The translations under genes were made by a program, and so were the position numbers. A stretch of 64,000 nt of DNA from the NCBI GenBank assembly GCA_022840695.1, contig JALHDC010000001.1:2516-66515 (forward strand), written 5' to 3'. The notes under the pieces are model-generated. The model worked only from the letters and a program-made list of their open reading frames with translations, had not been told where the DNA came from and did not search any database. Numbering within the stretch: position 1 is the first letter of the stretch; each line of letters begins with the position of its first letter. Source of the stretch: a bacterium. GTDB taxonomy: Bacteria > Patescibacteriota > Dojkabacteria > SC72. Shown piece by piece: positions 1-48,923 of the stretch.

Positions 1-1924
1 GGTCTATGTTATGTTCTCTTAGGTTATCATTACATCCTTGGTCAAATGCTGTTAAGTACATTATTACGGATCCTCCTTCGTTTCCATTTATGGATACTCT
101 TGTATTATTCGTATTTATGTACGGGGTTGTATTGATATTTGATATCTTCCAGCTATTACTATCATTCATTAGGCCTATTTGGTCTTCTGGGGGGATGTTA
201 TCCAAGGTTATATCGCTGTAACCAACTAAGCTTATGGTGTCATTTATTAGGAAACCTTCTCTGTAGGCATTGATTACGGTATCAGTTATATTACTTGATG
301 TACCCTCTACATTCCAGTTAAGGTATAGTTCTTGGGGTCCCAGGACAACTTGGGACAGGTCAATCATGGTAGGGATTACAAGATCTATACCCCAGTTAAA
401 ATATCTTTGCATACGGCTTATATCCACTCTTCCGTCACTTAGTAGCATATATTGGTCAAGGGTTATACTTTTGAAGTTATACATTCCTTCTAGGTTATCT
501 GTGAGGTTGGGGATTAGTTCTAGGTTAAATTCGAAGGTTACTATTTGGCTTCCTTGGGTTATTTCTATATCAGAGACTCGGGCTATATTATTTCCGCTAC
601 TATTTTTTAATGTTTTATCTGATATTACTGCCCATGTATTATTACTGTTAATTCCATACACAAGTGGGGGATTATTCCAGGAGTTATTATCTTGGAGAAT
701 CATTATTCCCAGTTCATCTGTACTGCTTGAGGTGTAGTTACTTACTATGTTTGGAAGTTGTGGAGTATTATTTGATTTACTAAACCACACTACAGTTCCT
801 TTTATTTCGTTATTACCATCAATATCCTTGGATCCCACCCTTATTTTAAGGGGGTTGTTTACCTGGGTTCCTGTATATTCTTCTGTTTTGCATCCTTTAG
901 GGGAGGTTGAGTCTTCTTCCCCTACTTCTGGAAGGAATTCCTCCTTAGTACACTGTTGGTCAGGGAGCATTAAGCAGGGCTCTTCAGGATCTCCGGTATT
1001 TGGGTCTATACAGTTAGGGTCAGTAGCAAGGAGTGAGGGGTCCCAATCGCACACATCTATATCTACAATTGGTAAATTGTCTACCTTGTAGTAGGTTTCC
1101 AAAGGAAGGGAATATTCTTTGTTTGTATTACAGAGATTTTCTGTGTAATACATTCCACTTACTTGTCCTTTAGCATTTTCTTTGAGTACTTGGGGTATGG
1201 TTAAGGAGGTTGGAGTAAAGTTTTGGGTATTATTTATTGATTCAACACAGTAGTCTTCTCCTCTAGAGCAATCAAAGGGAAGCCATTCATTGTCTATTCC
1301 GTAGTTATTGGCTCTAAAGGCATATCCCAGTCCATTTGAGGTTGGAGGGGTTGGTCTTGTTGGTATGGATGTTTGTACATTGTTTGCGGGTGAGGGATAT
1401 TTTACTGTGGTTGGGGTTGAGGAATTTAATGACAAAGAATAATTCTCACCATCCACTATCATGTTTAATGAGGTCGGAATTGATTGAGCTACATTACTCT
1501 CTGTTTTATAGCATGTAGTTCTTTGTGTGCATGTATTATTACAACCGTTTAGATATGTACAGCTTACTTCCTGAGTATCTGTACTACACAAATTATTTGG
1601 GTTAGTTGTTGTATATCCTGCTGGACAGGATGGTGCAGTACAAGATCCACTACAAGAATTATTACATGGAGGGGGAGGGCAAGGACAAGAGTAATCATCA
1701 CAACCAGAAGTTGCTTTTTCACAGACATATTCTCTGTAAAGAAACCTTCCCATTTCATCACGAACGGTTCTCCAATAACAATAATCACAACTATACATAC
1801 CTCCACTGTGTCCACAAGAATACCACCGACAACAACATTGAGCAGACACAAATTGTCTGGAAGAAACAAACAACAATATTACAAAAAATAATATTGTTAA
1901 AAATATTTTAATTAACTTCTTCAT
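1..1924 (-). CDS. Large secreted Cys/Pro-rich surface protein; start at 1924, 3' end beyond the window start. At least 641 codons in window; absent from the ORF track because there is no in-window stop.
   Basis: Manual minus-strand translation gives an uninterrupted frame from ATG at 1924-1922 to position 1. N-terminus MKKLIKIFLTILFFVILLFVSSRQFVSAQ is signal-peptide-like. It is followed by a Cys-rich block (CCCRWYSCGH...CPCPPPPCNNSCSGSCTAPSCPAGY), then a Thr/Asn/Ser-rich region. The plus-strand track ORFs 270..737, 747..1091, 1336..1518 are antisense shadows. Confidence 0.6.
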   Translation of the reverse strand, partial: MKKLIKIFLTILFFVILLFVSSRQFVSAQCCCRWYSCGHSGGMYSCDYCYWRTVRDEMGRFLYREYVCEKATSGCDDYSCPCPPPPCNNSCSGSCTAPSCPAGYTTTNPNNLCSTDTQEVSCTYLNGCNNTCTQRTTCYKTESNVAQSIPTSLNMIVDGENYSLSLNSSTPTTVKYPSPANNVQTSIPTRPTPPTSNGLGYAFRANNYGIDNEWLPFDCSRGEDYCVESINNTQNFTPTSLTIPQVLKENAKGQVSGMYYTENLCNTNKEYSLPLETYYKVDNLPIVDIDVCDWDPSLLATDPNCIDPNTGDPEEPCLMLPDQQCTKEEFLPEVGEEDSTSPKGCKTEEYTGTQVNNPLKIRVGSKDIDGNNEIKGTVVWFSKSNNTPQLPNIVSNYTSSSTDELGIMILQDNNSWNNPPLVYGINSNNTWAVISDKTLKNSSGNNIARVSDIEITQGSQIVTFEFNLELIPNLTDNLEGMYNFKSITLDQYMLLSDGRVDISRMQRYFNWGIDLVIPTMIDLSQVVLGPQELYLNWNVEGTSSNITDTVINAYREGFLINDTISLVGYSDITLDNIPPEDQIGLMNDSNSWKISNINTTPYINTNNTRVSINGNEGGSVIMYLTAFDQGCNDNLREHNID

Positions 1925-13912: not shown

Positions 13913-14009
13913 TTGATAAATATCCGATAGAATATTAAATTTCTTTGTAAATTTCGCTATAGTCATTGGTATACTAACATTTCTCAACTCACTAAAGGTC
14001 TGGAGGGTG

Positions 14010-14083
14010 TGGGAATAGGTGGACTCGAACCACCGACCACGGCTTTATAAGAACCGCGCTCTAACCACCTGAGCTATATTCCC
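14010..14083 (-). tRNA. tRNA-Ile (anticodon TAT/UAU)
   Basis: Revcomp GGGAATATAGCTCAGGTGGTTAGAGCGCGGTTCTTATAAAGCCGTGGTCGGTGGTTCGAGTCCACCTATTCCCA. Anticodon stem CGGTT/AGCCG, loop CTTATAA. No encoded CCA. Confidence 0.65.
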
Positions 14084-14117: not shown

Positions 14118-16646
14118 TTAGAAGCCCATTGGAGGAAATCCTTGCGAAGGTTGTTCCACTTTCTCCTCTACCTTATCCAATTGAGATCTTACCCTTATAT
14201 CATCATTTACTACATTTAAATCTCTTCCATACTTTCTTCTTGATATTTCTTTCACTATATTTGCAACTTCTTTGTTTACAGGAAGATCAAATCCAGAATC
14301 TGGGTACTGTGGACCGTATAGAGTGTTAAGTGAGAAAGGAGAAGGATATATGCCATTGTTTAGAAGTTTAACATATGCATGTCCCATTCCTTGGTTAACG
14401 ATATCCATTGAACTGATATACGATTCAAATTGTGTCTCCAAAAATTCCGCATCTTCAGCACTGCATCTGAATATGAATAGCGATCCTACATTTCCAAATA
14501 CTGCATTTCTTATATCTTCTGGTAATTGCCCAATATATTGGTGAGCTAATGTAAGGTTTAATCTATACTTTCTTGCTTCTGAGAGTATAGAATTAAATTC
14601 TTCTGTAGCAAAGTTTTGGAATTCATCGGCATAGAAGAAGAAGTCTTTTCTTTCTTTTTCGTCCATATCTTCTCTACTTAGGGCAGCAGCTAACATTTTT
14701 TGGACCAAGAGTAGACCTAAGAACGACATATTTTCTTCCCCTAATCTACCTTTTGAAAGGTTAACTATTAAAATCTTGCCTGAGTCCATAACTTCTCTGA
14801 AATCGAAAGATGATTGTGATTGTCCAATTATATTTCTAATGGCTAAGTTTGTAGTGAATTTGTCAAACTTAGATATAAAATATGTAAGAGCTTCTGATTT
14901 TGTCTTTTTGTCTGTTTTAGCTACCTGATCTGTCCAATATCTACGAACCAGTTCATCCTGTATCAAGGGTAACCAATGACTCATAACCCAATCTTCATCC
15001 TGGAGTATTCTTACAACCTCTATTAAAGTAGAGTCCTTTTTAGACATAGCGGTAAGCATAGAGTTCCTTACAGCCTGTTGGAATGCTGGTCCTGCATATC
15101 CTTGGTTATGTGGATCAAAGAGACGGATGAGGAGAGCTATGAAGCTGTTCACTATTTGATGCTTATGCTGTTCATTGTAATACTCCATGATATTGATACC
15201 AAATGGTCTTTCAAAATCTCCAGCATCAAAATATATTACATCTTCTGCCCTATCCGCAGGAATTCTCTCTAATATCATTTCTGCAGCTTGTCCGTGTGGA
15301 TCTATGAAGCAGACACCATCTCCATTATGAATATCCTGAAGTATCATTCTAACCATGAGCCATGATTTACCTGTACCTGTTTGTCCAAGTATATATGAAT
15401 GTCTTCTTCTGTCATCCCTCTTAAAACAGATAGCTTTCTTTTTTCCCCTAAAGTAGTTATTCCCTACCCATATTGTATCTTTCGAATTTATATCCGAGCT
15501 TATCTCGTTACTTGCAATCAGTTCTTTTGAGAGTAACCAGTTAACATTGGGAGTAGAGATATCTTTATTTGGGAAGTGATACAGAGCTGCTAGCTCCTCA
15601 AGGTTTAAAACTGTTTTTTCATCTTCGGGTGTTCTTCTGTATATTACATCATATACAAATTTCTTTTCTTCATTTTTGGAAATTTTTCTTTTTTTCAACC
15701 TATTAACACCTGGATTACTGTATTGGTCAAAAGCCCCGATAATATTGTCTAAATGCATTTTTGCAATTCCTTTATCTGGAGCACTAGTGATTATACGAAT
15801 TTCAGCCATAAGACCCGGTTTGGAAACCTTTTTACTAATTGCCTGCAACTTCTCTTGAGAGACATTTATTCTCTTCTTTTCAGGATCTGAATTATTACTT
15901 TCAACTTTCTGCACAAACTTTTCACCATTTTTCTGCCAACTTGAATCTGTAGGAGCAATGACTATCTGTACCAAAGCTCCTTCGTCTTCAGACATTTTAC
16001 TCAAGGTACTAAGTACATTTGCCATTGGGTCTCCAGTGAAATTTTCAGCCACCCTTATTGGACAGTACGAATCTTCATCTAGACCTAATTTTGCATAAGC
16101 AATTTCAGATTTAGGTGCGAATATATTGTACTGTTTGACTATTGCTACATCAGCATCTTGGTATGATCCTAATATTTGTTTTTCAACCAAATCAGCAAGT
16201 TTTCTAGGACAATGAACAAAGAATCTGATTTCTCCAGGAAGTCCTACTATTTCAAAACTAACACTATTGTTTACACTGAATTTCTCTGCAAGACCTTCCC
16301 CTTTTCCTCCTATTCCATAGAGATTGGCAAACATTTTCTCAGCAACTCCCAACTCTACTTCATTATTTCTCGGGACTCTAACTTCCATTAATACCCCATC
16401 CATAGCTTTTTCATCTCTATCCTTCTTTTTTAATTTTTTCTGTATATACAGAAATCCAACGACTAAACCTCCTACCAAGAGAAGAAAAAATATTATCCAG
16501 CCGTATGGAATATTACGAGTTGCTTGATTGTATAAATCACCGTATGTATCTTTAGGATATTCAACATTAGAACCAGTCTCTATTTCTGGTATTTCTTTTG
16601 GTACAGGACCAATTAATTGTGAATATGTAAATTCCCCCGGATTCAT
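14118..16646 (-). CDS. Type IV secretion-type ATPase, VirB4/VirD4 (TraC/TrwB) superfamily, with N-terminal TM anchor
   Basis: 842 aa. TM IPYGWIIFFLLLVGGLVVGFLYI. Walker A ILGQTGTGKS followed by CFIDPHGQ (compare TrwB GATGTGKS...IVDPNGD). Walker B FFFYADEFQNF. Arginine finger/Q motif EARKYRLNLTLAHQ (compare VirB4 RKxN...ATQ). Walker A lies near residue 430 of 842, proportions like VirB4. Confidence 0.65.
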   Translation of the reverse strand: MNPGEFTYSQLIGPVPKEIPEIETGSNVEYPKDTYGDLYNQATRNIPYGWIIFFLLLVGGLVVGFLYIQKKLKKKDRDEKAMDGVLMEVRVPRNNEVELGVAEKMFANLYGIGGKGEGLAEKFSVNNSVSFEIVGLPGEIRFFVHCPRKLADLVEKQILGSYQDADVAIVKQYNIFAPKSEIAYAKLGLDEDSYCPIRVAENFTGDPMANVLSTLSKMSEDEGALVQIVIAPTDSSWQKNGEKFVQKVESNNSDPEKKRINVSQEKLQAISKKVSKPGLMAEIRIITSAPDKGIAKMHLDNIIGAFDQYSNPGVNRLKKRKISKNEEKKFVYDVIYRRTPEDEKTVLNLEELAALYHFPNKDISTPNVNWLLSKELIASNEISSDINSKDTIWVGNNYFRGKKKAICFKRDDRRRHSYILGQTGTGKSWLMVRMILQDIHNGDGVCFIDPHGQAAEMILERIPADRAEDVIYFDAGDFERPFGINIMEYYNEQHKHQIVNSFIALLIRLFDPHNQGYAGPAFQQAVRNSMLTAMSKKDSTLIEVVRILQDEDWVMSHWLPLIQDELVRRYWTDQVAKTDKKTKSEALTYFISKFDKFTTNLAIRNIIGQSQSSFDFREVMDSGKILIVNLSKGRLGEENMSFLGLLLVQKMLAAALSREDMDEKERKDFFFYADEFQNFATEEFNSILSEARKYRLNLTLAHQYIGQLPEDIRNAVFGNVGSLFIFRCSAEDAEFLETQFESYISSMDIVNQGMGHAYVKLLNNGIYPSPFSLNTLYGPQYPDSGFDLPVNKEVANIVKEISRRKYGRDLNVVNDDIRVRSQLDKVEEKVEQPSQGFPPMGF

Positions 16647-20646: not shown

Positions 20647-20820
20647 ATATGTAAAGATATCATAGAAAAGGGAAAAGTTAAAGGGTCTGGCACTGGTCTA
20701 TCCCCCAGATATCTTTACCCAGTACAACCTTTTTGCAAAATCAGGAGGTTCTTTGGGATGTTGCAACAACAAAAATATGTACAAAAAGAGAACGATTTCC
20801 TCTTGTACAAAGGTTTTTAT

Positions 20821-20843
20821 GGGGACAGAGGAGGGTCTGACCC
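20821..20843. repeat. 23-nt GC-rich motif GGGGACAGAGGAGGGTCTGACCC (copy 1), palindromic core GGGTCnGACCC
   Basis: Identical except for the central nucleotide to 57652..57674. Both copies sit in GC-rich intergenic DNA and are each preceded 75-145 nt upstream by a degenerate AGGGTCnG...GGTC element. Copy 1 abuts the stop codon of the SpoIID-domain gene. Confidence 0.6.
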
Positions 20844-22714
20844 TACTTCTTCTCTACGTTGAAATACCAATAGTGTGATTGTTGTTGTATACGCATGTGG
20901 CCGGGAGCCATTTGATTGTATATATCCTTAAATTCATTACCGGGAATGCTAATTGTCCCCCGCTCCGTGCCATAAAAATGAACATATGTGGTTTTCCCTT
21001 CGGACAGATCTGTCTTAACAAAAGATATTGATTTTACAGGGTTATACAAAAAACTCTCCAATTCGGAAGATGAATAAGGAGATTTCGTTATGTTGCCATA
21101 ATCTACCCTATATGGACACTTCCCAAAATCACTTGGTAGTAATCTTGATAAATCGGGATTTCCTTTTACTCCTTTACCATATTTTATTAAGTATGCATTT
21201 AAAATATCTATCATTTCTTGTGGAGATAGCCAGGGAGAATGACCGCATGTTATCCCATCAGGCTTATCACCATAGCGATACCAAGATTTATAAAACCATG
21301 TCACTCCAGAAACTTTTTCCCAAGCATCGTAAAACCAGTTACTTCCACCTCCACTCTGTGTATCCCACCCTCCAATACTATCAATCCACCCACCATGCAC
21401 AGCAGCATACTGTGTGATTGCAAGATCTGCCCCACGGAACAAAACCTGACTTCGTGTACTATCAACTGCTTGTTTCCAAGTCCCTGTTTTAACACCTGCC
21501 ACATACTGATGACATGTATCACCTCTTATCGCGGAGGCTCCGTATCCTGTAACTCGCAAAGCAAATGTTCTTGCTGCAATAGCCTGTGCTTTCAATGCTT
21601 CTATATGGAAGTATTCTGGCATTTCCCCAAGACGATATAGATATTCCGTTTCGAAATCGTATGTTGCATAGGTGGGATTTACACAACCATCCTCCACAGG
21701 ATACCCACTTCTGGGACATCTTGAATTTGCACCACAATAGACAACTGTTATAGATCCCATGGTTCCACTACCAAAAGTAGGATTAGAATAGTAAAAATTC
21801 AAAATATCTCTATAACTTTGACCCGCATCAGCTCTAGCTCTAGCACCCCACTGACTCATACCGTTTCTATGTGTATATGCCCCAATAGAAAATACTCCGA
21901 AATAACCTGCTGGCGCCTGAGCTATAGAAGTACCATCCCCAGAGGTTGTATCTCCGCCACTCGATATAAACCCTGAACTTCTTGCAGCTATCAATGCAGC
22001 TTGAAGCTGTGATACCTTTTTTGTCAGATCTGTTATCTCAGAACTCAACCCACTCTTACTAGCTACCTGCTTACTCAACTCTGCCTGTAACCTAACCTTC
22101 TCTGAAGCTAACAACTCATGAGCATCATCCAAACCCTTTCTCTGACTATTCAAATCCTCCATCTGATTATCCAAATCAGCCTTACTCTCTGCTAACGAAC
22201 TAAACTCCCCCCCTATCTTCTCTACCTCTCCCCTTAACATAGATATAGTACTCTGCTTTATGAAAATACTCTCCACCAAACTCTTCCACCCCTCTTTACT
22301 TAAAAAGAAATTAGATACCTTAGACCTACTCTGTATATACAAATCACCAGAAACCTCATCAATTAATACTTTCATTTTCTCCAACTGTCCCTGCTTTTCA
22401 TTAATAGCTAAACTCTTCTCCTCTATCTCCTTCTCTGTTCTTTCAATATTTTCTTCTAACTCTGTAATCTCTTTGTTTATCAAAACAATCTTTTGGGATA
22501 TTGAATAATTACTATTACTTATCTCTTTTATTCTGCTTTCAACACTCTTTAAAACACCCTCCTTCTCTTTTAACTCTTTCTCTGTTTCAGCTATTTTATT
22601 CTCTAAATCCACTATTTCATTAGAATATATTGGGAAGTTGAAAAGAGTGAATGAATACAAAACAAAAAGAAATACGGCAAATATATTTGTGATTATTCGG
22701 GGCACTTTAGACAT
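20843..22714 (-). CDS. SpoIID/LytB-domain protein with N-terminal TM and long coiled coil
   Basis: C-terminal SpoIID signature ALKAQAIAARTFALRVTGYGASAIRGDTCHQYVAG. The N-terminal ~300 aa is a K/E-rich coiled coil after a TM anchor. The 3' third of the gene is markedly GC-richer than the surroundings. Confidence 0.75.
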   Translation of the reverse strand: MSKVPRIITNIFAVFLFVLYSFTLFNFPIYSNEIVDLENKIAETEKELKEKEGVLKSVESRIKEISNSNYSISQKIVLINKEITELEENIERTEKEIEEKSLAINEKQGQLEKMKVLIDEVSGDLYIQSRSKVSNFFLSKEGWKSLVESIFIKQSTISMLRGEVEKIGGEFSSLAESKADLDNQMEDLNSQRKGLDDAHELLASEKVRLQAELSKQVASKSGLSSEITDLTKKVSQLQAALIAARSSGFISSGGDTTSGDGTSIAQAPAGYFGVFSIGAYTHRNGMSQWGARARADAGQSYRDILNFYYSNPTFGSGTMGSITVVYCGANSRCPRSGYPVEDGCVNPTYATYDFETEYLYRLGEMPEYFHIEALKAQAIAARTFALRVTGYGASAIRGDTCHQYVAGVKTGTWKQAVDSTRSQVLFRGADLAITQYAAVHGGWIDSIGGWDTQSGGGSNWFYDAWEKVSGVTWFYKSWYRYGDKPDGITCGHSPWLSPQEMIDILNAYLIKYGKGVKGNPDLSRLLPSDFGKCPYRVDYGNITKSPYSSSELESFLYNPVKSISFVKTDLSEGKTTYVHFYGTERGTISIPGNEFKDIYNQMAPGHMRIQQQSHYWYFNVEKK

Positions 22715-22729: not shown

Positions 22730-23122
22730 TTAGCTGATAATGTTTTTTACAAATTCTATTATATATGGAAGAAACACTATTAATCCTGTTGTTACAGAAA
22801 CAAAAGCACTCACTAAAACAGCTCCAGCACTAACATCTTTGGCATATTTAATATTTACCTTATACTCCAAAGAAACAGTATCACACAATGCCTCTATTGC
22901 ACTATTAACTGTTTCAGATATAAAGACCATGGATATTACTAAGCTTAATGCTATCCAATCTGTATGAGAAATTTGGAAAAAGAACCCAGCAAAGACAACC
23001 AAGAGTGCAAAGATGAGATCTATTCTAAAATTTCTTTCGTTCTTAAATATCAGCTTAATACCATTCCTAGCATGCCCTTGGCTTTTAAAAAAATTTTCTG
23101 CCTGATATTTATGATTTTTCAT
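22730..23122 (-). CDS. dgkA: Diacylglycerol/undecaprenol kinase (DgkA family)
   Basis: Three TM helices and the conserved SETVNSAIEALCD motif of prokaryotic DAGK. Confidence 0.8.
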   Translation of the reverse strand: MKNHKYQAENFFKSQGHARNGIKLIFKNERNFRIDLIFALLVVFAGFFFQISHTDWIALSLVISMVFISETVNSAIEALCDTVSLEYKVNIKYAKDVSAGAVLVSAFVSVTTGLIVFLPYIIEFVKNIIS

Positions 23123-23442
23123 TATTGGGCAATGAAGTCTAAAACTGCATTAAGTACTGTAAATATAACCATTACAAAGATAAAGCCAATAACAGCCCAT
23201 GTTAATGTCCCTTGAGCTTGCTTCACCCTAGCAGGATCCCCTGCAGATATCATCCACATATATCCTCCCTGTATTATGAATATTACACAGATCAAACCTG
23301 CCAATGGAAAAAGGTAACTTAAAAGTTTATCTACCAATGTAGCCAATGTCCCATCTGTTAACCTAGGTGGTTCCTGGGCAAACACCGGAGAAACTAGAAG
23401 AAGTCCGGAGAAAAAATATATATATTTAAATATACTTTTCAT
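23122..23442 (-). CDS. VirB2/TrbC-like small membrane pilin-type protein, paralog 1
   Basis: Signal peptide (…LLLVSPVFAQ), then two hydrophobic helices separated by the conserved loop GGYMWMISAGDPARVKQAQGTL. Confidence 0.55.
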   Translation of the reverse strand: MKSIFKYIYFFSGLLLVSPVFAQEPPRLTDGTLATLVDKLLSYLFPLAGLICVIFIIQGGYMWMISAGDPARVKQAQGTLTWAVIGFIFVMVIFTVLNAVLDFIAQ

Positions 23443-23717
23443 TATTTAGTAGTTAAAACTTCATTTATTACAAATTCTATAATTGTTGGGGATATAAATA
23501 CAAGTATTAAACCTAAAAGAGAGAATGCCATTGATCTTGTAGCATCTTTTATCTTATCCTCATCACCAAAAGAAAGTATGAACTTAAAGCCAGAAATGAC
23601 TAATGATATAACCACTATTACTACGGAGAATGAGATGGCAAAGTTTATTATAAAGAATACAAATTCTGTTAAATTCTCATACCCCGTGTTGTTAAGAATA
23701 CTTAAATCCACCAACAT
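23442..23717 (-). CDS. VirB2/TrbC-like small membrane protein, paralog 2
   Basis: Two hydrophobic helices with loop SFGDEDKIKDATRSM; start overlaps the stop of paralog 1 (translational coupling). Confidence 0.5.
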   Translation of the reverse strand: MLVDLSILNNTGYENLTEFVFFIINFAISFSVVIVVISLVISGFKFILSFGDEDKIKDATRSMAFSLLGLILVFISPTIIEFVINEVLTTK

Positions 23718-23741
23718 ACGGGTATTAATTAAAAATATCTA

Positions 23742-24086
23742 TTACTTAAGAACGTTTGTTAATACAAACTGTACTAAGATTACGGAGATAAAACAGATAA
23801 CCAAACCAACGATTGCATATGTCAATGATTTTGTTGCTTTTTCTATCTTTGATTCATCTCCAGCTGCTGTGATATATGTATATCCACTAGCTATCAATAT
23901 TGCAACACATACTAAAGCTGCTAAACCAATTACTAAGTTCAAAACATCTTTAACCCATGGTAAAAAATCTTTACTTAATGGACCTTCTGGTAAATACTCT
24001 GTACCTGTTTGTGCTAAGACTGCAGAAGCTAAGTAGAGATTAGAAGCAACTCCTGAAACTACTGCTAATATCTTGGTCATTTTCAT
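23742..24086 (-). CDS. VirB2/TrbC-like small membrane protein, paralog 3
   Basis: Signal peptide (…ASAVLAQ) plus two helices and loop ASGYTYITAAGDESKIEKATKSL. Confidence 0.55.
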   Translation of the reverse strand: MKMTKILAVVSGVASNLYLASAVLAQTGTEYLPEGPLSKDFLPWVKDVLNLVIGLAALVCVAILIASGYTYITAAGDESKIEKATKSLTYAIVGLVICFISVILVQFVLTNVLK

Positions 24087-24161
24087 ATATTCTGTTTATT
24101 AAATATTATATTAATTGTGATAATTATATATAAAGGATTAGTTTTATGCAATACTAATTCT

Positions 24162-24458
24162 TTATAACCCCAATATCTTTCCAATAACAAAATCTATTAT
24201 TGTTCTAGCTAAAAATACAATAACCAAACCTATGATTGCAGCTGTTATACCCTTTTGACCTTTTTCGATCTTTTCAGGATCTCCTGCAGCAGTTATGAAC
24301 ATATACCCTGAAGCTACTAAGATAATTACAGCAACTAAAGCTGAAAATCCTACAAAGAAATCAATTGCAGTACCCACTTTTGAATTCAAAACGGAATCAA
24401 GAGTAGGATCTCCCCAATTTATTAATTTATCTCCAATAAACTGAGTTATATTTGTCAT
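24162..24458 (-). CDS. VirB2/TrbC-like small membrane protein, paralog 4
   Basis: Loop ASGYMFITAAGDPEKIEKGQKGI between two hydrophobic helices. Confidence 0.55.
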   Translation of the reverse strand: MTNITQFIGDKLINWGDPTLDSVLNSKVGTAIDFFVGFSALVAVIILVASGYMFITAAGDPEKIEKGQKGITAAIIGLVIVFLARTIIDFVIGKILGL

Positions 24459-24474
24459 ATTCGTATATTAATAA

Positions 24475-24825
24475 TTAATTATAAATATCCAAACCCAATG
24501 TATTACTGATTATCAATAGTATTGCAACAGAAAGTAATACTACTAAAAAACCAATAATTGCATTAGTTAAAATTTCCTTCCCTTCTTTTAATTTGTCCGG
24601 ATTTCCTTGACTAGACATAAGCATATATCCAGCATATACCACTAAAACAACCACACATATCACAGCCAAAGGAACAGCGATATCTACGATGGCATCTATA
24701 AGTTGATTCTCATCGGCAATCCCACCACTCTCCAATTTACCTAAACTTTCACTTAGTTTTGAACCCAAATCCTGAGCATATGCTTTTTGCACTATTAAAT
24801 CATGAATTTTACTAATAATTTCCAT
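24475..24825 (-). CDS. VirB2/TrbC-like small membrane protein, paralog 5
   Basis: Loop AGYMLMSSQGNPDKLKEGKEIL between two hydrophobic helices; most divergent copy. Confidence 0.5.
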   Translation of the reverse strand: MEIISKIHDLIVQKAYAQDLGSKLSESLGKLESGGIADENQLIDAIVDIAVPLAVICVVVLVVYAGYMLMSSQGNPDKLKEGKEILTNAIIGFLVVLLSVAILLIISNTLGLDIYN

Positions 24826-24847: not shown

Positions 24848-27800
24848 TTACAAATCTGCATATTCACATATTGAATTATAATCACAGAACCTACAAAGAT
24901 ATCCAGGAGTGGCAGTAAAATCTCCTCTCTTTACAGATTCTAATGTTGCAAGTAATTTTTCTTTTGATAACTCCCTTCTCTCTTCCGAGACATTAACCTC
25001 CAATTCCTTCCCTGTTTCTACATAAATATATTTAGCCTTACAAACTTTATATCCCAGTTTCTCCTCTGCGAATAATGCATACAAAGGTAATTGTAAATCA
25101 TCCTTCACGTCCTTCTCCTCTTTTTCCTTACCGGTTTTATAATCCACAATACATACCTCTGTAACACCATTGCTTTCTCCTACATAATCTATTCTGTCTA
25201 TCTTCCCTACAAAAACAGTATCCCCCAAATGAACATTAAAACCCTCCTCTAATCTAAGAGGTTTATCCTTTTCATCAAAAACTTTCTCATAATAATTTTT
25301 TAACATTTCAACACCTTCCTCTTTTCTTTCCTTTTCATGCTTACTACTTTCATAACCAGAAGAAACCCAATTCTTTTCATACAATCTGAGTAACTCCCCT
25401 ACCGTTGGCACATCAGTTATACCTTCCAATCCAGATTGAGAATGTTTTAATAGTGAATAGAAGTCCTTCATTGTATTATGAATAGTAGTTCCAAAAGAGA
25501 GGGCAGCACTTGGTCTTTGGGGAACCTTCAATATATATGCATATTCATATTTTCTAGGACATGCCTCATAGACATTAAGTTGAGAATAACTAAATCTTTT
25601 AACTAAATTCCGTTTTAAATCAGACCCCAATAAAACACCTACATCCTCATCATTTATAATATTAATTCCAACACTCTTTTCTGCCAGATTTTTAACTTCA
25701 ATATTTTTAAATTCTTCCTCCACATTCCTATCAAGTATTTCATTCAGAAATATACTTGGTTTTTTCTTTCTCTTTCCATCACCATAGAAATATGCAGCTG
25801 TGAGGAATAATTTTTCCATTGCTCTAGTTGCACCGACATAAAACAACCTTCTTTCTTCCTGGATATTAGATTCTTTTTCACTAATCTCTTCAGGCAAGGT
25901 TTCTTTTATTAAAGCCTCTGGTATTGGAATACTATCTGATCTCCCATATGCAGGAAATCTCTGTGCAACAAGATTTACTAAAAAGACAATTGGAAACTCC
26001 AAACCTTTTGAACCATGTACTGTCATAATATTTACTCCATTAAAATCTTCTAATTCTGTCTGATCTACCAAAGGTGATTCTCCAACCTCTATGCAGTAAT
26101 TGAGATAATCTACATACTCATAGATATTAGATAATGGATTATCCTTCTCATACTGCTTAACTAATTCCAAAAATTTGTTTATATTTGAAACCGCAAAAAG
26201 ATTCTCCGGATCTTCATTCTCCATAAAGGAGTCTAAATACAGGCTCTTTATCACAAACTCATACACTATTTCTAAAACTGGTCTATTATCCTTAACTCTT
26301 ACAATTGAAGAATTTAATAGATCAAGAAGCCTACTAATACCAGCAATAGCTTTAGGGGAAAGAATTTTTGCAACTTCCTCATTCTCAATATCTTCGATTT
26401 CATCACTACTTACATCCCCTAATTTCACATTCCATAGTTCCTCCAATTGCTCAAAGAGAGTTATCTTCTTCTCTCTCGCCCGTTTACTAATTTCTACATA
26501 CTCCCTTGCAGATAAATCCCATATGGACATAGAAAGTAATCGGTACATAGATATTTCATCGGAATAATCTGTCAAGACTTTAAGAAACGATACTATATTT
26601 CTAACTTCTTCTCTGAAATATAATCCTCTTGAACCACCTAGTTTATATGGAATCCCTTTATTACGAAGAGCTTGTATAAAACTCTCTGCATGAGAATTAG
26701 CTCTTACAAATATTGCAATATCAGAAAATTTATAATCTCTTTCCTTCTCATCGACAAAAGATGCCTGCCCTTTCTCATCAAAGACCTGCCCTTCACTATC
26801 TTCAACAACATATTCATCATATCCTGTTAATTTTAATATCTCCTCAGCAACCTTCTCAGCTTCTGCACTCTCATTATTTGCCACTACTAAATTAACAGGA
26901 TTATCATCTTTTTTAAAAACAGCCTTAGCCAAAAGCTTTTTCTCAATATTCTCAGTAATCTCCAACCTGTTGGGATTATTATGCTTAATTAACTGGTATG
27001 AAGCATCTAAAATCTCCTGTCTTGAACGATAGTTTTCTGTTAGAACAATTTCTTCTGCCTCTGGATATGTTTGTTTAAATTGGAGAATATTTGATATTGC
27101 AGCACCTCTAAATTTGTAAATGGCTTGATCATCATCACCAACTACAGTTAGGTGTGATGGCCCTTCTCCCAGAAGATTTACTAATACATTCTGTGCATAG
27201 TTAGTATCCTGAAATTCATCTACTAGTATATATTTAAACTGTTTCTGATATTTCTTCCTCTCTCTTAACAACCTCAGCGTAAGGGTTATTAAATCACCAA
27301 AATCTAGCTTTGAATTTTCAATCTTCAAATCCGAATACATCTTATATGTATTAGCAAGCTCATTAGTCTTTGCATACTCCTCTTTCTCCTCTTCACTGTT
27401 TTTAGGTAAACTACTCGCATATTCTAAGTATTCTTGGGGAGAGACATCCTCATCTTGAAGTCTTGAAAAGTGCCCAATCAAGTCATTTATAAATTTTGTA
27501 GAATTACCCCTTGGTCTTAAAGTTTTAAGAGGTAGATCATACAAATACCTTCTTAAAAAGATATATGCTTGAGATGTACTCATTAAAGAATATCCCCCAT
27601 CGAGACCAATATTGTAACCATCTTCTCGTAGAATTTTGTCACAAAAAGAATGAAATGTTGATATTAATGGCTCTTCATACCCATACTCCATTTCCAGATC
27701 TACTCTCTCCTGCATTTCTTGGGCAGCTTTTTCTGTAAATGTTAATGCCAATATCTCGGAAGGCTTAGCATATCCCTTCTTTATTATATGTATTATCCTT

Positions 27801-27910
27801 TGTGTTAAAACAGCCGTTTTACCAGTACCAGCTCCTGCAATTATTAATAGATCCCCTCCATTATATTCAACAGCCTTTTTTTGATTTTCGTTTAATCTGA
27901 TTTGGCTCAC
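24848..27910 (-). CDS. UvrD/PcrA-family SF1 helicase fused to a C-terminal PD-(D/E)xK nuclease with Cas4/AddB-like Fe-S cysteines
   Basis: Helicase motifs: motif I IIAGAGTGKTAVLTQRI, motif Ia ALTFTEKAAQEM, motif III VDEFQDTN, ENYRSRQEIL, motif V VHGSKGLEFPIVFLVNL. C-terminal nuclease motifs IDRIDY...VDYKTGKEK and cysteines CPRKYEY...CRFCDYNSICEY. 1020 aa; GTG start. Confidence 0.85.
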   Translation of the reverse strand: MSQIRLNENQKKAVEYNGGDLLIIAGAGTGKTAVLTQRIIHIIKKGYAKPSEILALTFTEKAAQEMQERVDLEMEYGYEEPLISTFHSFCDKILREDGYNIGLDGGYSLMSTSQAYIFLRRYLYDLPLKTLRPRGNSTKFINDLIGHFSRLQDEDVSPQEYLEYASSLPKNSEEEKEEYAKTNELANTYKMYSDLKIENSKLDFGDLITLTLRLLRERKKYQKQFKYILVDEFQDTNYAQNVLVNLLGEGPSHLTVVGDDDQAIYKFRGAAISNILQFKQTYPEAEEIVLTENYRSRQEILDASYQLIKHNNPNRLEITENIEKKLLAKAVFKKDDNPVNLVVANNESAEAEKVAEEILKLTGYDEYVVEDSEGQVFDEKGQASFVDEKERDYKFSDIAIFVRANSHAESFIQALRNKGIPYKLGGSRGLYFREEVRNIVSFLKVLTDYSDEISMYRLLSMSIWDLSAREYVEISKRAREKKITLFEQLEELWNVKLGDVSSDEIEDIENEEVAKILSPKAIAGISRLLDLLNSSIVRVKDNRPVLEIVYEFVIKSLYLDSFMENEDPENLFAVSNINKFLELVKQYEKDNPLSNIYEYVDYLNYCIEVGESPLVDQTELEDFNGVNIMTVHGSKGLEFPIVFLVNLVAQRFPAYGRSDSIPIPEALIKETLPEEISEKESNIQEERRLFYVGATRAMEKLFLTAAYFYGDGKRKKKPSIFLNEILDRNVEEEFKNIEVKNLAEKSVGINIINDEDVGVLLGSDLKRNLVKRFSYSQLNVYEACPRKYEYAYILKVPQRPSAALSFGTTIHNTMKDFYSLLKHSQSGLEGITDVPTVGELLRLYEKNWVSSGYESSKHEKERKEEGVEMLKNYYEKVFDEKDKPLRLEEGFNVHLGDTVFVGKIDRIDYVGESNGVTEVCIVDYKTGKEKEEKDVKDDLQLPLYALFAEEKLGYKVCKAKYIYVETGKELEVNVSEERRELSKEKLLATLESVKRGDFTATPGYLCRFCDYNSICEYADL

Positions 27911-38706: not shown

Positions 38707-39378
38707 ATGAATATACTAATTATAGAGAATTCAAAGACTCTTTCCCAACTTCTTTTTAAAACTCTTAACTCCTACGGATATTCTGTATCTGTTGATGATA
38801 AAAATTTTTCAAGTCAAAACCTAATTAAAAGTAAAATATTTGATGTATGCATAATGAATACTAATTTAGGTGATACTTTAAGCAAGAAGATATTGAAATA
38901 TATAGTAGATAAATCAACAAATACTAAAATATTAGGGATCTGTAATAGAGGTAGTTGGGTAGAAAAGGTTGAATTTTTAAAAAGAGGTGGAGATGATGTC
39001 CTTACCTACCCTTTTCCAATACAAGAGTTACTAGCTAGAATTCAATCTTTAATGAGAAGACCTAAGAATTATGTAGATAAAAACCTATATATTGGAGACT
39101 TTATGTTGGATTTAGATAATAAGTCTGTATATAAAGACAATGCGGATATGGATATTAGAAAAAAAGAGTATGATCTTTTTGAATATTTAGTCAGGAATAA
39201 AGACAGGGTTATATCAAGATGTGAACTCCTCGATCATGTATGGGATTATAGAGAGTACATAGGGTCTAATACGATAGATGTACATATAAAAAGGTTAAGA
39301 GATAAACTTCAAGATAAGACTTTAATAGAAACTGTCCATGGAGTTGGATACCAAGTAAAAGAGCCTAAAGCATCATAG
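38707..39378 (+). CDS. OmpR/PhoB-family winged-helix response regulator (orphan, atypical receiver)
   Basis: C-terminal trans_reg_C-like region (KKEYDLFEYLVRNKDRVISRCELLDHVW...IDVHIKRLRDKL...VHGVGYQV). The N-terminal receiver-like domain does not show a clear acid pocket; no kinase gene adjacent. Confidence 0.65.
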   Translation: MNILIIENSKTLSQLLFKTLNSYGYSVSVDDKNFSSQNLIKSKIFDVCIMNTNLGDTLSKKILKYIVDKSTNTKILGICNRGSWVEKVEFLKRGGDDVLTYPFPIQELLARIQSLMRRPKNYVDKNLYIGDFMLDLDNKSVYKDNADMDIRKKEYDLFEYLVRNKDRVISRCELLDHVWDYREYIGSNTIDVHIKRLRDKLQDKTLIETVHGVGYQVKEPKAS

Positions 39379-40492
39379 GCATGACTAGATGGACAAAACT
39401 ATCATCCCCGTCTATCTTAAATACTCCTGGTTTAACTGCTTCTGAACACTCAAAAAGTATATTTTCGGAATCTAAGTGATTAAGTATGTCAGAAAGAAGT
39501 TTTGCACTAAAAGCTATCTTTAGATCCTCTCCCTCTACTTTACAACCAAAGTTACTCTCATTTTTACCTAAATCAGCTTGAGTAGCGGAAAGAGATATTT
39601 GATCTGATTTAGAAGATATATCTAATATCATCTTATTTCCTAAAACAGATCTAGCAATAATATTGACTATCTTTAAAGAATTTAGAAATACTTCTCTCTC
39701 TATACTACATTTAGTTTTAAATCCTGTAGGTATAATCTGTTTATATTCAGGAAATTCACCATCTATTAACCTAGATATTAAATCTATATCTCCAACTCTA
39801 AACATAACTTGATTCTTATCCTCTATTAAATAGATTGATAATAGTTCATCAGAATCATTACTTGTCTCAGAGATTATATATGAAAGCTCTATTAAAGCTC
39901 TTACAGGAATTAAGAAACTCCTATTCTTAGATGTTTTTCCAACCTTAATAACCTGTCTAGATAATCTCAAACCATCAGTTGCTATTAAAGCCACCTGATC
40001 ATCCTCTATTTCAAATTTGACACCTGTTAATACCGGTTTAATATCATCAGTAGCAGCAGCAAAAGCAACTCTATTAATGGCCATAACTAAATCTGCTTTA
40101 TTAATCTGAATAAACGGATCTTCCTTCTTTTCTACAGATGGAATTGTAGGAAAATCATCAGAAGGCATAGTATTAAAACTTGCAGTATTGTTAGATGTTG
40201 ATATATTGAAATTTTGTTTTTCAACTTCTACCTGAACAACCTCTTCTGGAATTGAATTTACAAAATCTGTTAATTGTTTAGCAGGTATAGTTACTTTTCC
40301 CTCATCTGTAATATCAGCACCTATCCAGGTATTGATACTTAGTTCTAAATCAGTTGCCTTGATAATCAATTTATTCTTTTCACTTTCGAATAGTACATTG
40401 TTTAATATTGGAAGACCAGGTTTATTACTAACTACCCTACTTACAATATTCAAATATTTTGAGAATGTATCTTGATTACAAGAAAACTTCAT
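39365..40492 (-). CDS. dnaN: DNA polymerase III beta sliding clamp
   Basis: MKFSCNQDTFSKYLNIVSRVVSNKPGLPILNNVLFE is typical of the DnaN N-terminus; 375 aa; located downstream of dnaA. Confidence 0.9.
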   Translation of the reverse strand: MKFSCNQDTFSKYLNIVSRVVSNKPGLPILNNVLFESEKNKLIIKATDLELSINTWIGADITDEGKVTIPAKQLTDFVNSIPEEVVQVEVEKQNFNISTSNNTASFNTMPSDDFPTIPSVEKKEDPFIQINKADLVMAINRVAFAAATDDIKPVLTGVKFEIEDDQVALIATDGLRLSRQVIKVGKTSKNRSFLIPVRALIELSYIISETSNDSDELLSIYLIEDKNQVMFRVGDIDLISRLIDGEFPEYKQIIPTGFKTKCSIEREVFLNSLKIVNIIARSVLGNKMILDISSKSDQISLSATQADLGKNESNFGCKVEGEDLKIAFSAKLLSDILNHLDSENILFECSEAVKPGVFKIDGDDSFVHLVMPMML

Positions 40493-42405: not shown

Positions 42406-42658
42406 AAATAAAAAATAATAAGGCAGTTTAAAGGGGGGCAGTCACATGGCCGATTGGGACTTTTATCCATTATAATGATTTCGAAAGAAATGTGGATATG
42501 TTTCTAAATAGAATATTAAAATCTCCTAATAAAGGCACTTTTTAACAATGGTGGATAACTCTAGTAATTTTAGAGTCTTTTTATACAATTCTTTTAAATT
42601 TTTAAATATCCCTTATTATACTTGGCATTTTACAATATCAACTGTATAATAACGCTGT

Positions 42659-42841: not shown

Positions 42842-42847
42842 ATATAT

Positions 42848-48906: not shown

Positions 48907-48923
48907 ATTTATTTACTGCCTTA

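What the first reader, a model, noticed from the sequence alone, without database searches (positions are those of the whole stretch)
23122..24825. Array of five tandem VirB2/TrbC-like small membrane protein paralogs
Five co-oriented genes of 91-116 aa encode proteins with two hydrophobic helices separated by a conserved loop [AS][AS]GD[PE]xK[IL]xx[AG] (AAGDPEKIEKGQ, SAGDPARVKQAQ, AAGDESKIEKAT, SQGNPDKLKEGK, SFGDEDKIKDAT). Two carry cleavable signal peptides ending AQ. This is the topology of T4SS pilins (VirB2/TrbC), not of type IV pilins; no G/FxxxE leader is present. A five-fold tandem array of VirB2-like subunits in a housekeeping neighbourhood, with the matching ATPase 6.5 kb away, suggests a filament or conduit with interchangeable or variant major subunits. 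It could be an undescribed surface appendage used for host attachment or DNA exchange.
Basis: partly seen in the sequence, partly recalled or inferred. Interest (0 to 1): 0.7.

Follow-up and report, generated by a model that had tools for sequence, protein, structure and literature searches.

The report
Five-gene VirB2-like pilin array, Dojkabacteria
Five small adjacent genes in this ultra-small (candidate phyla radiation, Dojkabacteria) bacterium encode divergent copies of the two-helix "pilin" of type IV secretion systems; such arrays are already described across this group and are essential in one cultured relative, but what they build is still unknown.

Summary
Five co-oriented minus-strand genes (24825..23122; 116, 98, 114, 91 and 106 aa) all pass Pfam PF18895 (T4SS_pilin). 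They score just under the TrbC/VirB2 cut-off.

The array is not undescribed. Tandem arrays of 2-11 VirB2-like pilin genes, about 25% identical, were reported in 383 Patescibacteria assemblies (PMC12102498). A comparable series is essential in Southlakia epibionticum (PMC10633639).

The window comes from a Dojkabacteria (WS6) chromosome, and the array lies about 17 kb from dnaA.

New here:
- The five genes are five ancient orthogroups in a fixed order, 1-2-3-4-5, found in 37 of 51 species-level loci.
- Each is under purifying selection (dN/dS 0.10-0.26).
- Type 3 is the type that is amplified (12 of 51 loci; one shows an extra type-5-like gene), and it follows a conserved sigma-70-type promoter.
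- These points argue against interchangeable variants and for one heteromeric assembly with type 3 as the major subunit.

The "matching ATPase" is a VirD4/coupling-protein-like enzyme, not VirB4. No VirB4 lies in the window or within 10 kb of the array in 79 relatives.

Whether the product is an extracellular tube or a membrane-embedded structure remains open.

Verdict: a new member of a known kind, of moderate interest.

The parts
24475..24825 (-). Pilin type 1 (116 aa). It has a short conserved leader ending K-A-Y-A-Q, then a two-helix hairpin with loop SQGNPDKLKEGK.
   Evidence: ORF. PF18895 37.7 bits. Orthogroup at position 1 in 29/29 genomes. The leader motif is conserved class-wide.
24162..24458 (-). 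Pilin type 2 (98 aa). It has no signal peptide and is the fastest-evolving type.
   Evidence: PF18895 43.0 bits. Mean pairwise identity 40% over 61 loci. Position 2 in 29/29 genomes.
24123..24151 (-). Conserved sigma-70-type promoter in the type 2-type 3 spacer: -35 TTGCAT (24151..24146), a 17-nt spacer, then -10 TATAAT (24128..24123), about 34 nt upstream of the type 3 start codon.
   Evidence: Spacer alignment. The TTGNNN-16..19-TAnAAT pattern occurs in 47 of 65 orthologous spacers, against 1.2 expected in shuffles. The type 2-type 3 gap has a median of 68 nt, against 0-28 nt for the other gaps.
23742..24086 (-). Pilin type 3 (114 aa), the inferred major subunit. It has a Sec signal peptide ending ...AVLAQ, two conserved Cys in the helices, and the loop AAGDESKIEKAT.
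   Evidence: PF18895 45.1 bits. NF045849 45.8 bits, above the cut-off of 40. It is the most conserved type, at 51% mean pairwise identity. It is the type that is amplified, up to 4 copies; one bounded locus instead shows an extra type-5-like gene. The AlphaFold2 model has helices 3-28, 41-73 and 78-112.
23442..23717 (-). Pilin type 4 (91 aa). It has no signal peptide and is lost in 4 of 51 bounded loci.
   Evidence: PF18895 27.3 bits, just above the gathering score. Type strings 1-2-3-5 and 1-2-3-3-3-5.
23122..23442 (-). Pilin type 5 (106 aa). It has a Sec signal peptide ending ...PVFAQ, is the most TrbC-like of the five, and its start overlaps the type 4 stop.
   Evidence: PF18895 50.3 bits and TrbC 27.7 bits against a cut-off of 27.9. 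Motif GGYMWMxSxGDPxRVKQAQGTLTW.
22730..23122 (-). Diacylglycerol/undecaprenol kinase family gene (DAGK_prokar). Its ATG overlaps the type 5 stop codon, implying translational coupling. It is an optional neighbour.
   Evidence: Pfam 112.9 bits. One shared base, 23122. It lies directly downstream of the array in 19 of 51 bounded loci and is absent from that position in the rest.
20843..22714 (-). Signal-anchored coiled-coil protein with a SpoIID/LytB (lytic transglycosylase family) domain. It is the constant downstream neighbour of the array and a candidate wall-opening enzyme (VirB1-like role, inferred).
   Evidence: Pfam SpoIID. TIGR02669 81.4 bits. It follows the array, directly or after DAGK, in all 51 bounded loci.
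20778..20809 (-). Terminator-like hairpin followed by a T-run after the SpoIID-like gene. It is the probable end of the transcription unit.
   Evidence: 12-bp stem followed by TATTTTTGTT.
24848..27910 (-). AddA-like UvrD helicase with a PD-(D/E)XK nuclease domain. It lies 22 nt upstream of type 1 on the same strand, so types 1-2 are probably co-transcribed with it. This is context, not shown to be functionally linked.
   Evidence: Pfam. It is the upstream neighbour in 49 of 51 bounded loci.
14118..16646 (-). VirD4/T4CP-like ATPase (842 aa): one TM helix, a DUF8128 domain, then a P-loop domain with GQTGTGKS. It sits in a conserved position 6-8 kb from the array, but partnership is unproven.
   Evidence: Pfam T4SS-DNA_transf, TrwB_AAD_bind and DUF87. 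DUF8128. NCBIfam CD1115 VirD4-like, 2e-12. Against PDB sequences, DotL 2.9e-6 and TrwB 0.005 match but no VirB4 does. Present in synteny in 33 loci, with 77% mean column identity.

Best explanation
The five genes are the Dojkabacteria version of the Patescibacteria VirB2-like pilin array. They are five ancient, non-redundant paralogues of the two-helix T4SS pilin hairpin.

Shown:
- Family membership, hairpin topology and signal peptides on types 3 and 5.
- Fixed gene order, one-to-one orthology and purifying selection.
- A conserved internal promoter in front of type 3.
- Chromosomal location about 17 kb from dnaA.

Inferred mechanism:
- The subunits insert into the cytoplasmic membrane as hairpins, through Sec for types 3 and 5 and probably through YidC or N-tail insertion for types 1, 2 and 4.
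- They are then extracted and co-assembled into one envelope-crossing tube or short filament by the chromosomal, monoderm-type (MPF-FATA-derived) T4SS, which is encoded elsewhere in the genome.
- Type 3 is the bulk subunit. Types 1, 2, 4 and 5 are single-copy accessory subunits for initiation, tip or base.
- The SpoIID-like enzyme encoded just downstream opens the wall.
- By analogy with Saccharibacteria, the structure serves contact with, or exchange with, a host cell.
For: Family:
- All five pass the PF18895 gathering score.
- All 145 pilins from 29 genomes hit PF18895, and 57 also hit TrbC at E <= 1e-3.
- NF045849, the Mycoplasma ICE pilin-like conjugal transfer protein, gives E = 7e-7 to 4e-12, and type 3 exceeds its cut-off.

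Fold:
- AlphaFold2 gives a signal helix plus a 33+35-residue helical hairpin at pLDDT 73.7.
- Two hydrophobic stretches flank a K/R-containing loop.

Non-redundancy:
- For every one of the 145 proteins, the best hit in another genome sits at the same array position.
- The order 1-2-3-4-5 occurs in 37 of 51 bounded loci. Copy number rises through type 3 in 12 loci, and one locus shows an extra type-5-like gene.
- dN/dS is 0.10-0.26 for each type.
- Single polypeptides carrying 2-17 fused hairpin units exist in other lineages, which implies that units sit together in one assembly.

Type 3 as major subunit:
- It is the most conserved type.
- It is the amplified type.
- It is the first gene after a promoter conserved in 47 of 65 spacers, against 1.2 expected.

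T4SS context from the literature:
- Pilin arrays of 2-11 genes occur in 383 Patescibacteria assemblies, and T4SS genes lie near dnaA (PMC12102498).
- The pilin series is essential in S. epibionticum (PMC10633639; PMC12857230).
- VirB4 is reported in Dojkabacteria assemblies.
- dnaA and dnaN lie at 39.4-42.4 kb in the window.
- A 9-nm tube or lance of unknown composition was seen by cryo-ET in a Saccharibacterium (PMC11880426).
Against: - No VirB4, VirB3, VirB6 or VirB8 is recognisable in the 64-kb window.
- No unassigned large Walker-A ORF looked VirB4-like within 10 kb of the array in any of 79 loci: the 11 found were judged ABC-transporter- or PilB-like from length and motif position alone. 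Linkage to a T4SS therefore rests on family membership and on the literature.
- A type 3 profile finds nothing among PDB sequences. hhalign against a genuine Agrobacterium VirB2 gives 0.2% probability.
- TrbC PF04956 is below its curated cut-off for all five.
- Three of the five lack a signal peptide.
- No T4SS pilus has been seen in any Patescibacterium.
- The fused multi-unit proteins show no internal cleavage motifs in the one sequence inspected (P0241). That fits a membrane-embedded structure better than free polymerising subunits.
Confidence: 0.55

Rival explanations
1. The family is the same, but no filament forms. The hairpins stay in the membrane and form a hetero-oligomeric ring or channel element of a monoderm T4SS translocon, as presumed for the pilin-like proteins of Mycoplasma ICEs. 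They are not an extracellular appendage.
For: - The best curated match is the Mycoplasma ICE family NF045849, ahead of proteobacterial TrbC.
- Weak matches place the same hairpin inside larger Gram-positive conjugation membrane proteins: pLS20_p028 at 2.7e-4 and MMCAP2_0566 at 0.02.
- Fused proteins with 2-17 hairpin units are common among the top-scoring relatives; in P0241 only the first unit has a signal peptide.
- Gram-positive T4SSs generally lack pili, and no T4SS pilus has been observed in Patescibacteria.
Against: - N-terminal segments, predicted to face outward, are markedly more variable than the hairpins (column identity 0.37-0.47 against 0.59-0.73). This is expected for exposed surfaces.
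- A 9-nm tube of unknown composition exists in a Saccharibacterium.
- Type 3 amplification and its own promoter suggest a need for bulk subunit supply.
Confidence: 0.25
2. The paralogues are interchangeable alternative major subunits used for antigenic variation or host-range variation. This is the first reader's idea, and the analogy drawn with Bartonella and Anaplasma VirB2 paralogues.
For: - Paralogues are only 23-44% identical.
- The 2025 survey speculated that such versatility might aid adaptation to different host strains.
- N-terminal regions are variable.
- Type 3 copy number varies from 1 to 4 between species.
Against: - Gene order is fixed, and orthology is strictly position-specific in 145 of 145 proteins.
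- Every type has dN/dS of 0.10-0.26.
- Types 1, 2 and 4 are never duplicated, and type 5 only once, as an extended form.
- Each type has its own conserved signature and its own N-terminal architecture: signal peptide, short leader or none.
- No shuffling or gene conversion is possible at this level of divergence.
Confidence: 0.08
3. The genes encode small membrane proteins that work independently of any T4SS. Examples would be partners of the neighbouring conserved block (SpoIID-like, bPH, DUF5657, 758-aa protein, T4CP-like ATPase) in cell-envelope or division biology, or holin-like proteins.
For: - The array is never next to VirB4 in Dojkabacteria.
- It is embedded in a class-wide conserved block of envelope genes of unknown function.
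- The relationship to genuine VirB2 is undetectable by hhalign and by fold search.
Against: - PF18895 is met by all members.
- TrbC E-values reach 6.5e-9 among relatives.
- The NCBIfam matches are to a conjugation family.
- No holin family appears even at E <= 1.
- In other Patescibacteria classes, 1,135 assemblies have the pilin gene near virB4.
Confidence: 0.07

Closest known systems
VirB2-like pilin arrays of Patescibacteria (Ca. Southlakia epibionticum ML1 T4SS cluster SEML1_0006-0019; the 'Sec-secreted array' of Ca. Nanosynbacter lyticus TM7x; 441 arrays in 383 assemblies, PMC12102498)
   Same: The Pfam families are the same (PF18895 and PF04956). The genes are tandem and co-oriented, 2-11 per array, with about 25% identity between copies. 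The location is chromosomal and near the origin, in a monoderm ultra-small bacterium.
   Different: In Dojkabacteria the array is not inside a virB4 cluster. It lies between an AddA-like helicase and a SpoIID-like gene. The fixed five-type architecture, the mainly type-3 amplification and the internal promoter were not reported in the papers I read.
Mbov_0395 / MMCAP2_0565 pilin-like conjugal transfer protein of Mycoplasma ICEs (NCBIfam NF045849)
   Same: It is a small two-helix membrane protein of a monoderm (MPF-FATA lineage) T4SS. Type 3 scores 45.8 bits against a cut-off of 40, and the other four give E = 7e-7 to 2e-10.
   Different: It is a single gene on a mobile element next to VirB4. 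Here there are five chromosomal paralogues, and four of the five fall below the equivalog cut-off.
TrbC / VirB2 / TraA conjugative pilins of Gram-negative T4SSs (Pfam PF04956)
   Same: The topology is the same: signal peptide, two hydrophobic helices and a short basic loop. The size is similar. The profile match is statistically significant for types 5, 3 and 2 (E = 3e-6 to 1e-4).
   Different: The scores are below the curated cut-off. No similarity to Agrobacterium VirB2 is detectable by hhalign. No VirB5, VirB7, VirB9 or VirB10 is present, the envelope is monoderm, three types lack a leader, and cyclisation or acetylation is unknown.
Tandem VirB2 paralogues of Bartonella and Anaplasma phagocytophilum T4SSs
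   Same: Several divergent VirB2 genes lie in a row (cited).
   Different: Those are interpreted as antigenic or host-interaction variants. Here strict orthology and purifying selection argue for distinct fixed roles.
Major plus minor pilin sets of type IV pili and type II secretion pseudopili (analogy only)
   Same: One abundant subunit plus several conserved single-copy paralogues are encoded together. This is the architecture inferred here.
   Different: The fold and the machinery are unrelated. No class III (G|FxxxE) leader is present, and no prepilin peptidase is involved.

Membership tests
Pfam PF18895 T4SS_pilin | Whole-protein score at or above the curated gathering score (26.6 bits). 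| tested here: met
   The scores are 37.7, 43.0, 45.1, 27.3 and 50.3 bits for types 1-5. All 145 orthologues from 29 genomes match at E <= 1e-3.
Pfam PF04956 TrbC/VirB2 pilin | Whole-protein score at or above the gathering score (27.9 bits). | tested here: not met
   The best is type 5 at 27.7 bits (E = 3.3e-6). Types 3, 2 and 1 score 24.1, 22.5 and 14.5 bits, and type 4 has no hit. Among relatives, 57 of 145 reach E <= 1e-3, with a best of 6.5e-9. The similarity is significant, but curated membership is not met in the window.
TrbC/VirB2 conjugative pilins | Two hydrophobic helices joined by a short loop carrying basic residues. | tested here: met
   Hydropathy analysis and the loop with 2-3 K/R. 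AlphaFold2 helices 41-73 and 78-112 in type 3.
TrbC/VirB2 conjugative pilins | N-terminal leader removed by signal peptidase. | tested here: inconclusive
   Types 3 and 5 have n-h-c signal peptides with V-L-A|Q and V-F-A|Q. Type 1 has only a short K-A-Y-A|Q leader. Types 2 and 4 have none. Cleavage itself is not testable here.
TrbC/VirB2 conjugative pilins | Detectable homology to a genuine VirB2 or solved pilin structure. | tested here: not met
TrbC/VirB2 conjugative pilins | Encoded with VirB4 and other mating-pair-formation genes. | tested here: not met
   No VirB4, VirB3, VirB6 or VirB8 family hit was found among the 47 window ORFs scanned; the unscanned ORFs are all under 300 aa. No candidate lies within 10 kb of the array in 79 loci. 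The rest of the genome could not be reached.
TrbC/VirB2 conjugative pilins | Polymerises with phospholipid into an extracellular pilus. | not testable with these tools
   This needs EM or biochemistry. No T4SS pilus has yet been reported for Patescibacteria.
Patescibacteria VirB2-like pilin array (as defined in PMC12102498) | Two or more PF18895/PF04956 genes in tandem, or separated by one gene, in a Patescibacteria genome, with low identity between copies. | tested here: met
   Five tandem genes at 23-44% identity. Relatives are titled Candidatus Dojkabacteria or WS6.
Patescibacteria VirB2-like pilin array (as defined in PMC12102498) | The genome also encodes the Patescibacteria-clade VirB4. 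| not testable with these tools
   Only 64 kb are available. The literature lists VirB4 as present in the two Dojkabacteria assemblies shown (GCA_003452355.1 and GCA_003453845.1) and names Dojkabacteria among lineages with a T4SS.
NCBIfam NF045849 Mbov_0395 family pilin-like conjugal transfer protein | Score at or above the equivalog cut-off (40 bits). | tested here: inconclusive
   Type 3 scores 45.8 bits (met). Type 5 scores 39.9, type 2 32.7, type 4 31.5 and type 1 28.9 bits, all below the cut-off.
Type IV pilins (T4P/T2SS) | Class III signal peptide G|[FM]xxxE followed by a single hydrophobic N-terminal helix. | tested here: not met
   No such leader occurs in any of the five sequences, which instead have two hydrophobic helices. 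No Pfam pilin (N_methyl) hit appears.
Holins and other small phage membrane proteins | Profile match to a holin family, or a phage context. | tested here: not met
   No holin family appears at E <= 1 in Pfam or NCBIfam. tblastn of type 3 against 50,697 phage records finds no match. The context is chromosomal and syntenic.

The most novel reading that the evidence does not exclude
The five fixed types build a heteromeric T4SS tube. Type 3 polymerises as the shaft. The four single-copy VirB2-like paralogues replace the missing VirB5-type tip or initiator and the base. Some species carry a type-5-like pilin with a 160-260-aa ectodomain, which could be an adhesin tip. This would be a multi-pilin T4SS filament in a monoderm, a design without precedent among characterised T4SSs. 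It would also be a candidate identity for the roughly 9-nm 'lance with barbed tip' or inter-cell conduit seen by cryo-ET in a Saccharibacterium. The co-transcribed AddA-like helicase-nuclease and endonuclease IV leave open a role in DNA or nucleotide acquisition.
Probability: 0.25. Interest if true: 0.75.

Novelty: new member of a known kind. Interest (0 to 1): 0.35.

Why it matters
The role of the T4SS in Patescibacteria is an acknowledged open question. It is essential in the one species tested, its function is described as 'completely unknown' (PMC11665869), and it is the first monoderm T4SS with pilin genes (PMC12857230).

This locus adds no new kind of system. It does give a very clean natural experiment across the Dojkabacteria class:
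- five paralogues with one-to-one orthology;
- amplification almost confined to one type;
- a conserved internal promoter.

Together these turn 'why so many pilins?' into a testable proposal of one major plus four accessory subunits. The proposal argues against the antigenic-variation reading offered so far. If the pilins do form the host-contact tube, they are the structural core of the epibiotic lifestyle of a large part of bacterial diversity.

Tried and rejected

2. Sequence and profile comparison with solved or genuine pilins. The type 3 profile found nothing among PDB sequences. hhalign against A. fabrum VirB2 gave 0.2% probability. My recalled VirB2 sequence was only about 85% correct, so a database copy was used instead.

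3. Looking for VirB4.
- Pfam and NCBIfam scans of 47 window ORFs, including every ORF of 300 aa or more, found none.
- A Walker-A scan of all unassigned ORFs of 400 aa or more in 79 loci left 11 ORFs. I judged them ABC-transporter- or PilB-like from length and motif position only, without a profile search.
- Walking beyond the window ends failed: two look-ups were not on record, and one returned only short contigs.

4. The 584-aa polytopic protein (48924-50678) as a divergent VirB6.
- It has no Pfam or NCBIfam family and no PDB sequence hit.
- The top Foldseek hits are R388 stalk-complex (TrwJ/VirB5-TrwI/VirB6) chains that I take to be VirB6 by modelled length, and DotA-IcmX, but at E = 0.12-0.7 and TM 0.16-0.32. 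This is a lead only.
- Its paralogue in a 760-kb relative is also not next to an ATPase.

5. DAGK as an obligate partner, on the idea of a lipid supply for a lipid-containing pilus. Rejected: it is directly downstream in only 19 of 51 bounded loci.

6. The generic promoter/terminator scan found no more sites than shuffles did (31 against 31.6). The promoter emerged only from cross-species comparison.

7. Mobile-element origin. There is no tblastn match for type 5 in 72,556 plasmids or for type 3 in 50,697 phages.

8. Rfam found no RNA family in or near the array.


Full report
**Observation**

I call them types 1-5 in transcription order.
- The quoted loop sequences are present.
- Each protein has two hydrophobic stretches around a G[YF]xx[IML]x[SA]xG[DN] motif and a loop with 2-3 basic residues.
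- Types 3 and 5 start with classical signal peptides ending LAQ and FAQ.
- Type 1 has a short leader ending K-A-Y-A-Q that is conserved across the class.
- Types 2 and 4 have no leader.
- Pairwise identity is 23-44%.

**Family**

- All five pass the curated threshold of Pfam PF18895 (T4SS_pilin), at 27.3-50.3 bits against 26.6.
- Four of them match TrbC/VirB2 (PF04956) at E = 3e-6 to 0.04 (significant for types 5, 3 and 2), but below its cut-off. The best is 27.7 bits against 27.9.
- NCBIfam places them nearest the Mbov_0395/MMCAP2_0565 'pilin-like conjugal transfer protein' of Mycoplasma ICEs. Type 3 scores 45.8 bits, above the cut-off of 40.
- Across 29 genomes, all 145 orthologues hit PF18895 and 57 also hit TrbC.
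- An AlphaFold2 model of type 3 (71-sequence alignment, pLDDT 73.7) shows a signal helix and a long helical hairpin.
- Fold searches and direct comparison with a genuine Agrobacterium VirB2 were uninformative or negative. The assignment therefore rests on sequence profiles and not on structure.
- The family is very large: 76,908 clusters at 50% identity match the five-sequence profile.

**Organism and context**

- Homologues and 79 species-level related loci are titled Candidatus Dojkabacteria or candidate division WS6. Some carry automatic 'uncultured Saccharibacteria' labels.
- Two window proteins are 100% identical to proteins on a 239.6-kb NCBI contig.
- dnaA (40936-42405) and dnaN (39365-40492) lie in the window, and GC skew changes sign near 42-44 kb. 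The array therefore sits about 17 kb from the origin.
- The neighbourhood is housekeeping. In order it contains endonuclease IV, an AddA-like helicase-nuclease, the five pilins, DAGK, a SpoIID-like protein, a bPH membrane protein, DUF5657, a 758-aa single-pass protein, SmpB, a 96-aa protein, an ATPase and XerC.
- The ATPase is VirD4/coupling-protein-like. It matches Pfam T4SS-DNA_transf, TrwB_AAD_bind and TraG-D_C, NCBIfam CD1115, and PDB DotL and TrwB. No VirB4 match appears.
- No VirB4-sized ATPase is present elsewhere in the window. I judged none of the unassigned Walker-A ORFs within 10 kb of the array in the 79 loci to be VirB4-like.

**What is already known**

- Wang et al. 2023 (PMC10633639) found a series of predicted pilin genes inside the essential T4SS cluster of Southlakia epibionticum.
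- Quinonero-Coronel et al. 2025 (PMC12102498) searched 3,035 Patescibacteria genomes with PF04956 and PF18895. They reported 441 arrays of 2-11 pilin genes in 383 assemblies, with a mean identity of 25%. They also reported T4SS genes near dnaA, and about two T4CP homologues per genome, mostly far from virB4. They speculated on antigenic or host-range versatility.
- Their Table S1 marks the two Dojkabacteria assemblies shown as VirB4-positive, and the preprint names Dojkabacteria among T4SS-bearing lineages.
- A 2025 review calls these the first monoderm T4SSs with potential pili. No pilus has been seen.
- A 2024 perspective calls the T4SS role 'completely unknown'.

The kind is therefore known. 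This locus is a new member.

**What the comparison adds**

In 51 loci bounded on both sides, the array has 5 genes in 37, 6 in 10, 4 in 2, 7 in 1 and 8 in 1.
- Typing each gene gives 1-2-3-4-5 in 37 loci. Increases come almost entirely from extra type 3 copies (up to four); one locus shows an extra type-5-like gene. Type 4 is lost in four loci.
- Independently of my type models, the best hit of each of 145 proteins in another genome is at the same array position, 29 of 29 for every position.
- dN/dS against two relatives is 0.10-0.26 for every type.
- Type 3 is the most conserved (51% mean pairwise identity) and type 2 the least (40%).
- N-terminal parts are more variable than the hairpins (0.37-0.47 against 0.59-0.73 column identity).
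- Gaps between genes are 0-28 nt, except a median of 68 nt before type 3.
- That spacer carries TTGCAt-17-TATAAT in 47 of 65 species, against 1.2 expected. In the window, -35 is at 24151..24146 and -10 at 24128..24123.
- The SpoIID-like gene follows the array in all 51 bounded loci. DAGK is directly downstream in 19 of them.
- A terminator-like hairpin follows the SpoIID-like gene.
- One caveat applies. The loci were fished with a type 3 alignment, so the presence of type 3 is guaranteed. Duplications of other types would still have been visible.

**Mechanism**

Shown: five distinct, conserved, co-oriented VirB2-like hairpin proteins, plus a dedicated promoter for the type 3-4-5 (+DAGK) and SpoIID-like part of the operon.

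Inferred:
- The subunits co-assemble in one structure instead of substituting for each other.
- Type 3 is the bulk subunit.
- The structure is made by a T4SS encoded elsewhere in the genome.
- The SpoIID-like lytic transglycosylase homologue plays the wall-opening (VirB1-like) role.

The co-assembly idea gains support from an unexpected result. The top relatives in the 1.84-billion-protein library are single polypeptides with 2-17 fused hairpin units.
- One is from an Altiarchaeales archaeon.
- One lies inside an array of single pilin genes.

These same fusions have a signal peptide only on the first unit and no cleavage motifs in the linkers, as read in P0241. That also feeds the main rival: the hairpins may form a membrane-embedded ring or channel instead of a free filament.

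A cryo-ET study of a Saccharibacterium saw a 9-nm tube or lance of unknown composition between parasite and host (PMC11880426). Conjugative pili have a similar diameter (my own knowledge). The link is speculative.

**Verdict**

'Undescribed', 'interchangeable subunits' and 'matching ATPase' are not supported. The locus is a new member of a known kind. Interest is moderate because the function of these arrays is a live open question, and this lineage offers an unusually orderly version of it.

Noticed in passing
P0241, P0248, P0251, P0256; L095:1777-3435: 'Polypilins': single ORFs with 2-17 tandem copies of the pilin hairpin. Examples are 552 aa with 6 units, and 1775 aa with 17 units. One of 1039 aa and 10 units is OYT27652.1 from a Candidatus Altiarchaeales archaeon. 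In P0241 only the first unit has a signal peptide. P0241 lies inside an array of single pilin genes. All 150 top-scoring representatives have at least 2 units. I found no mention of this in the papers read.
   Followed up: partly
window 48184-52630 (+); L090:8531-14892: A module of three orphan genes: 240 aa; a 584-aa signal-peptide-bearing polytopic membrane protein; and a 646-aa protein with C-terminal TM helices. A paralogous 435+849-aa pair occurs elsewhere in a 760-kb relative, and its 849-aa protein carries an HEVTH motif. The family looks Dojkabacteria-restricted and has no Pfam match. The top Foldseek hits of the 584-aa model are R388 stalk-complex (TrwJ/VirB5-TrwI/VirB6) chains, taken to be VirB6 by modelled length, and DotA-IcmX. 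They are non-significant (E = 0.12-0.7).
   Followed up: partly
window 24772-24825 (type 1 N-terminus); type 1 orthologues in 61 loci: Type 1 pilins start with a very short (8-18 aa), weakly hydrophobic leader. It ends in a class-wide conserved K-[AIV]-Y-A-[QNSG] motif. This is neither a Sec signal peptide nor a prepilin leader, and it is unexplained.
   Followed up: partly
L023:2076-3074, L024:6437-7159, L033:11394-12113: Some species carry an extra type-5-like pilin whose hairpin is preceded by a 160-260-aa N-terminal extension. PF18895 matches only the last 70 residues. This may be a pilin with an ectodomain.
   Followed up: partly
L053:8935-9927 (also L039, L064): In three species a roughly 1-kb insertion separates types 2 and 3. 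In L053 it encodes a 330-aa protein with no Pfam match. Its sequence (NEAF..., EGQFEPWG) looks to me like a TIM-barrel glycoside hydrolase, which is my impression only.
   Followed up: partly
window 14118-16646 (-): The T4CP-like ATPase with an N-terminal DUF8128 domain is far more conserved than the pilins, with 77% mean column identity over 29 species. It keeps a fixed place next to SmpB and XerC. Its role is unknown.
   Followed up: partly
window 14009-14083 (-): A tRNA-Ile with anticodon UAU (tat). This is an uncommon way of reading AUA in bacteria.
   Followed up: no
window 1908-3449 and 3452-4669 (-): Two adjacent orphan genes (513 and 405 aa) have near-identical N-terminal membrane anchors (MNRSAQNK...ILGLGYWYFF). 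They have no family match and are probably paralogous surface proteins.
   Followed up: no
window 4689-6524 (-): An ATP-dependent (archaeal/eukaryotic-type) DNA ligase with all three domains lies near DNA polymerase I (6996-9668), separated from it by a small DeoR-type HTH gene.
   Followed up: no
window 39365-43400: A likely replication origin. dnaN and dnaA lie on the minus strand, yidC (43471-44322) on the plus strand, and GC skew changes sign around 42-44 kb.
   Followed up: partly
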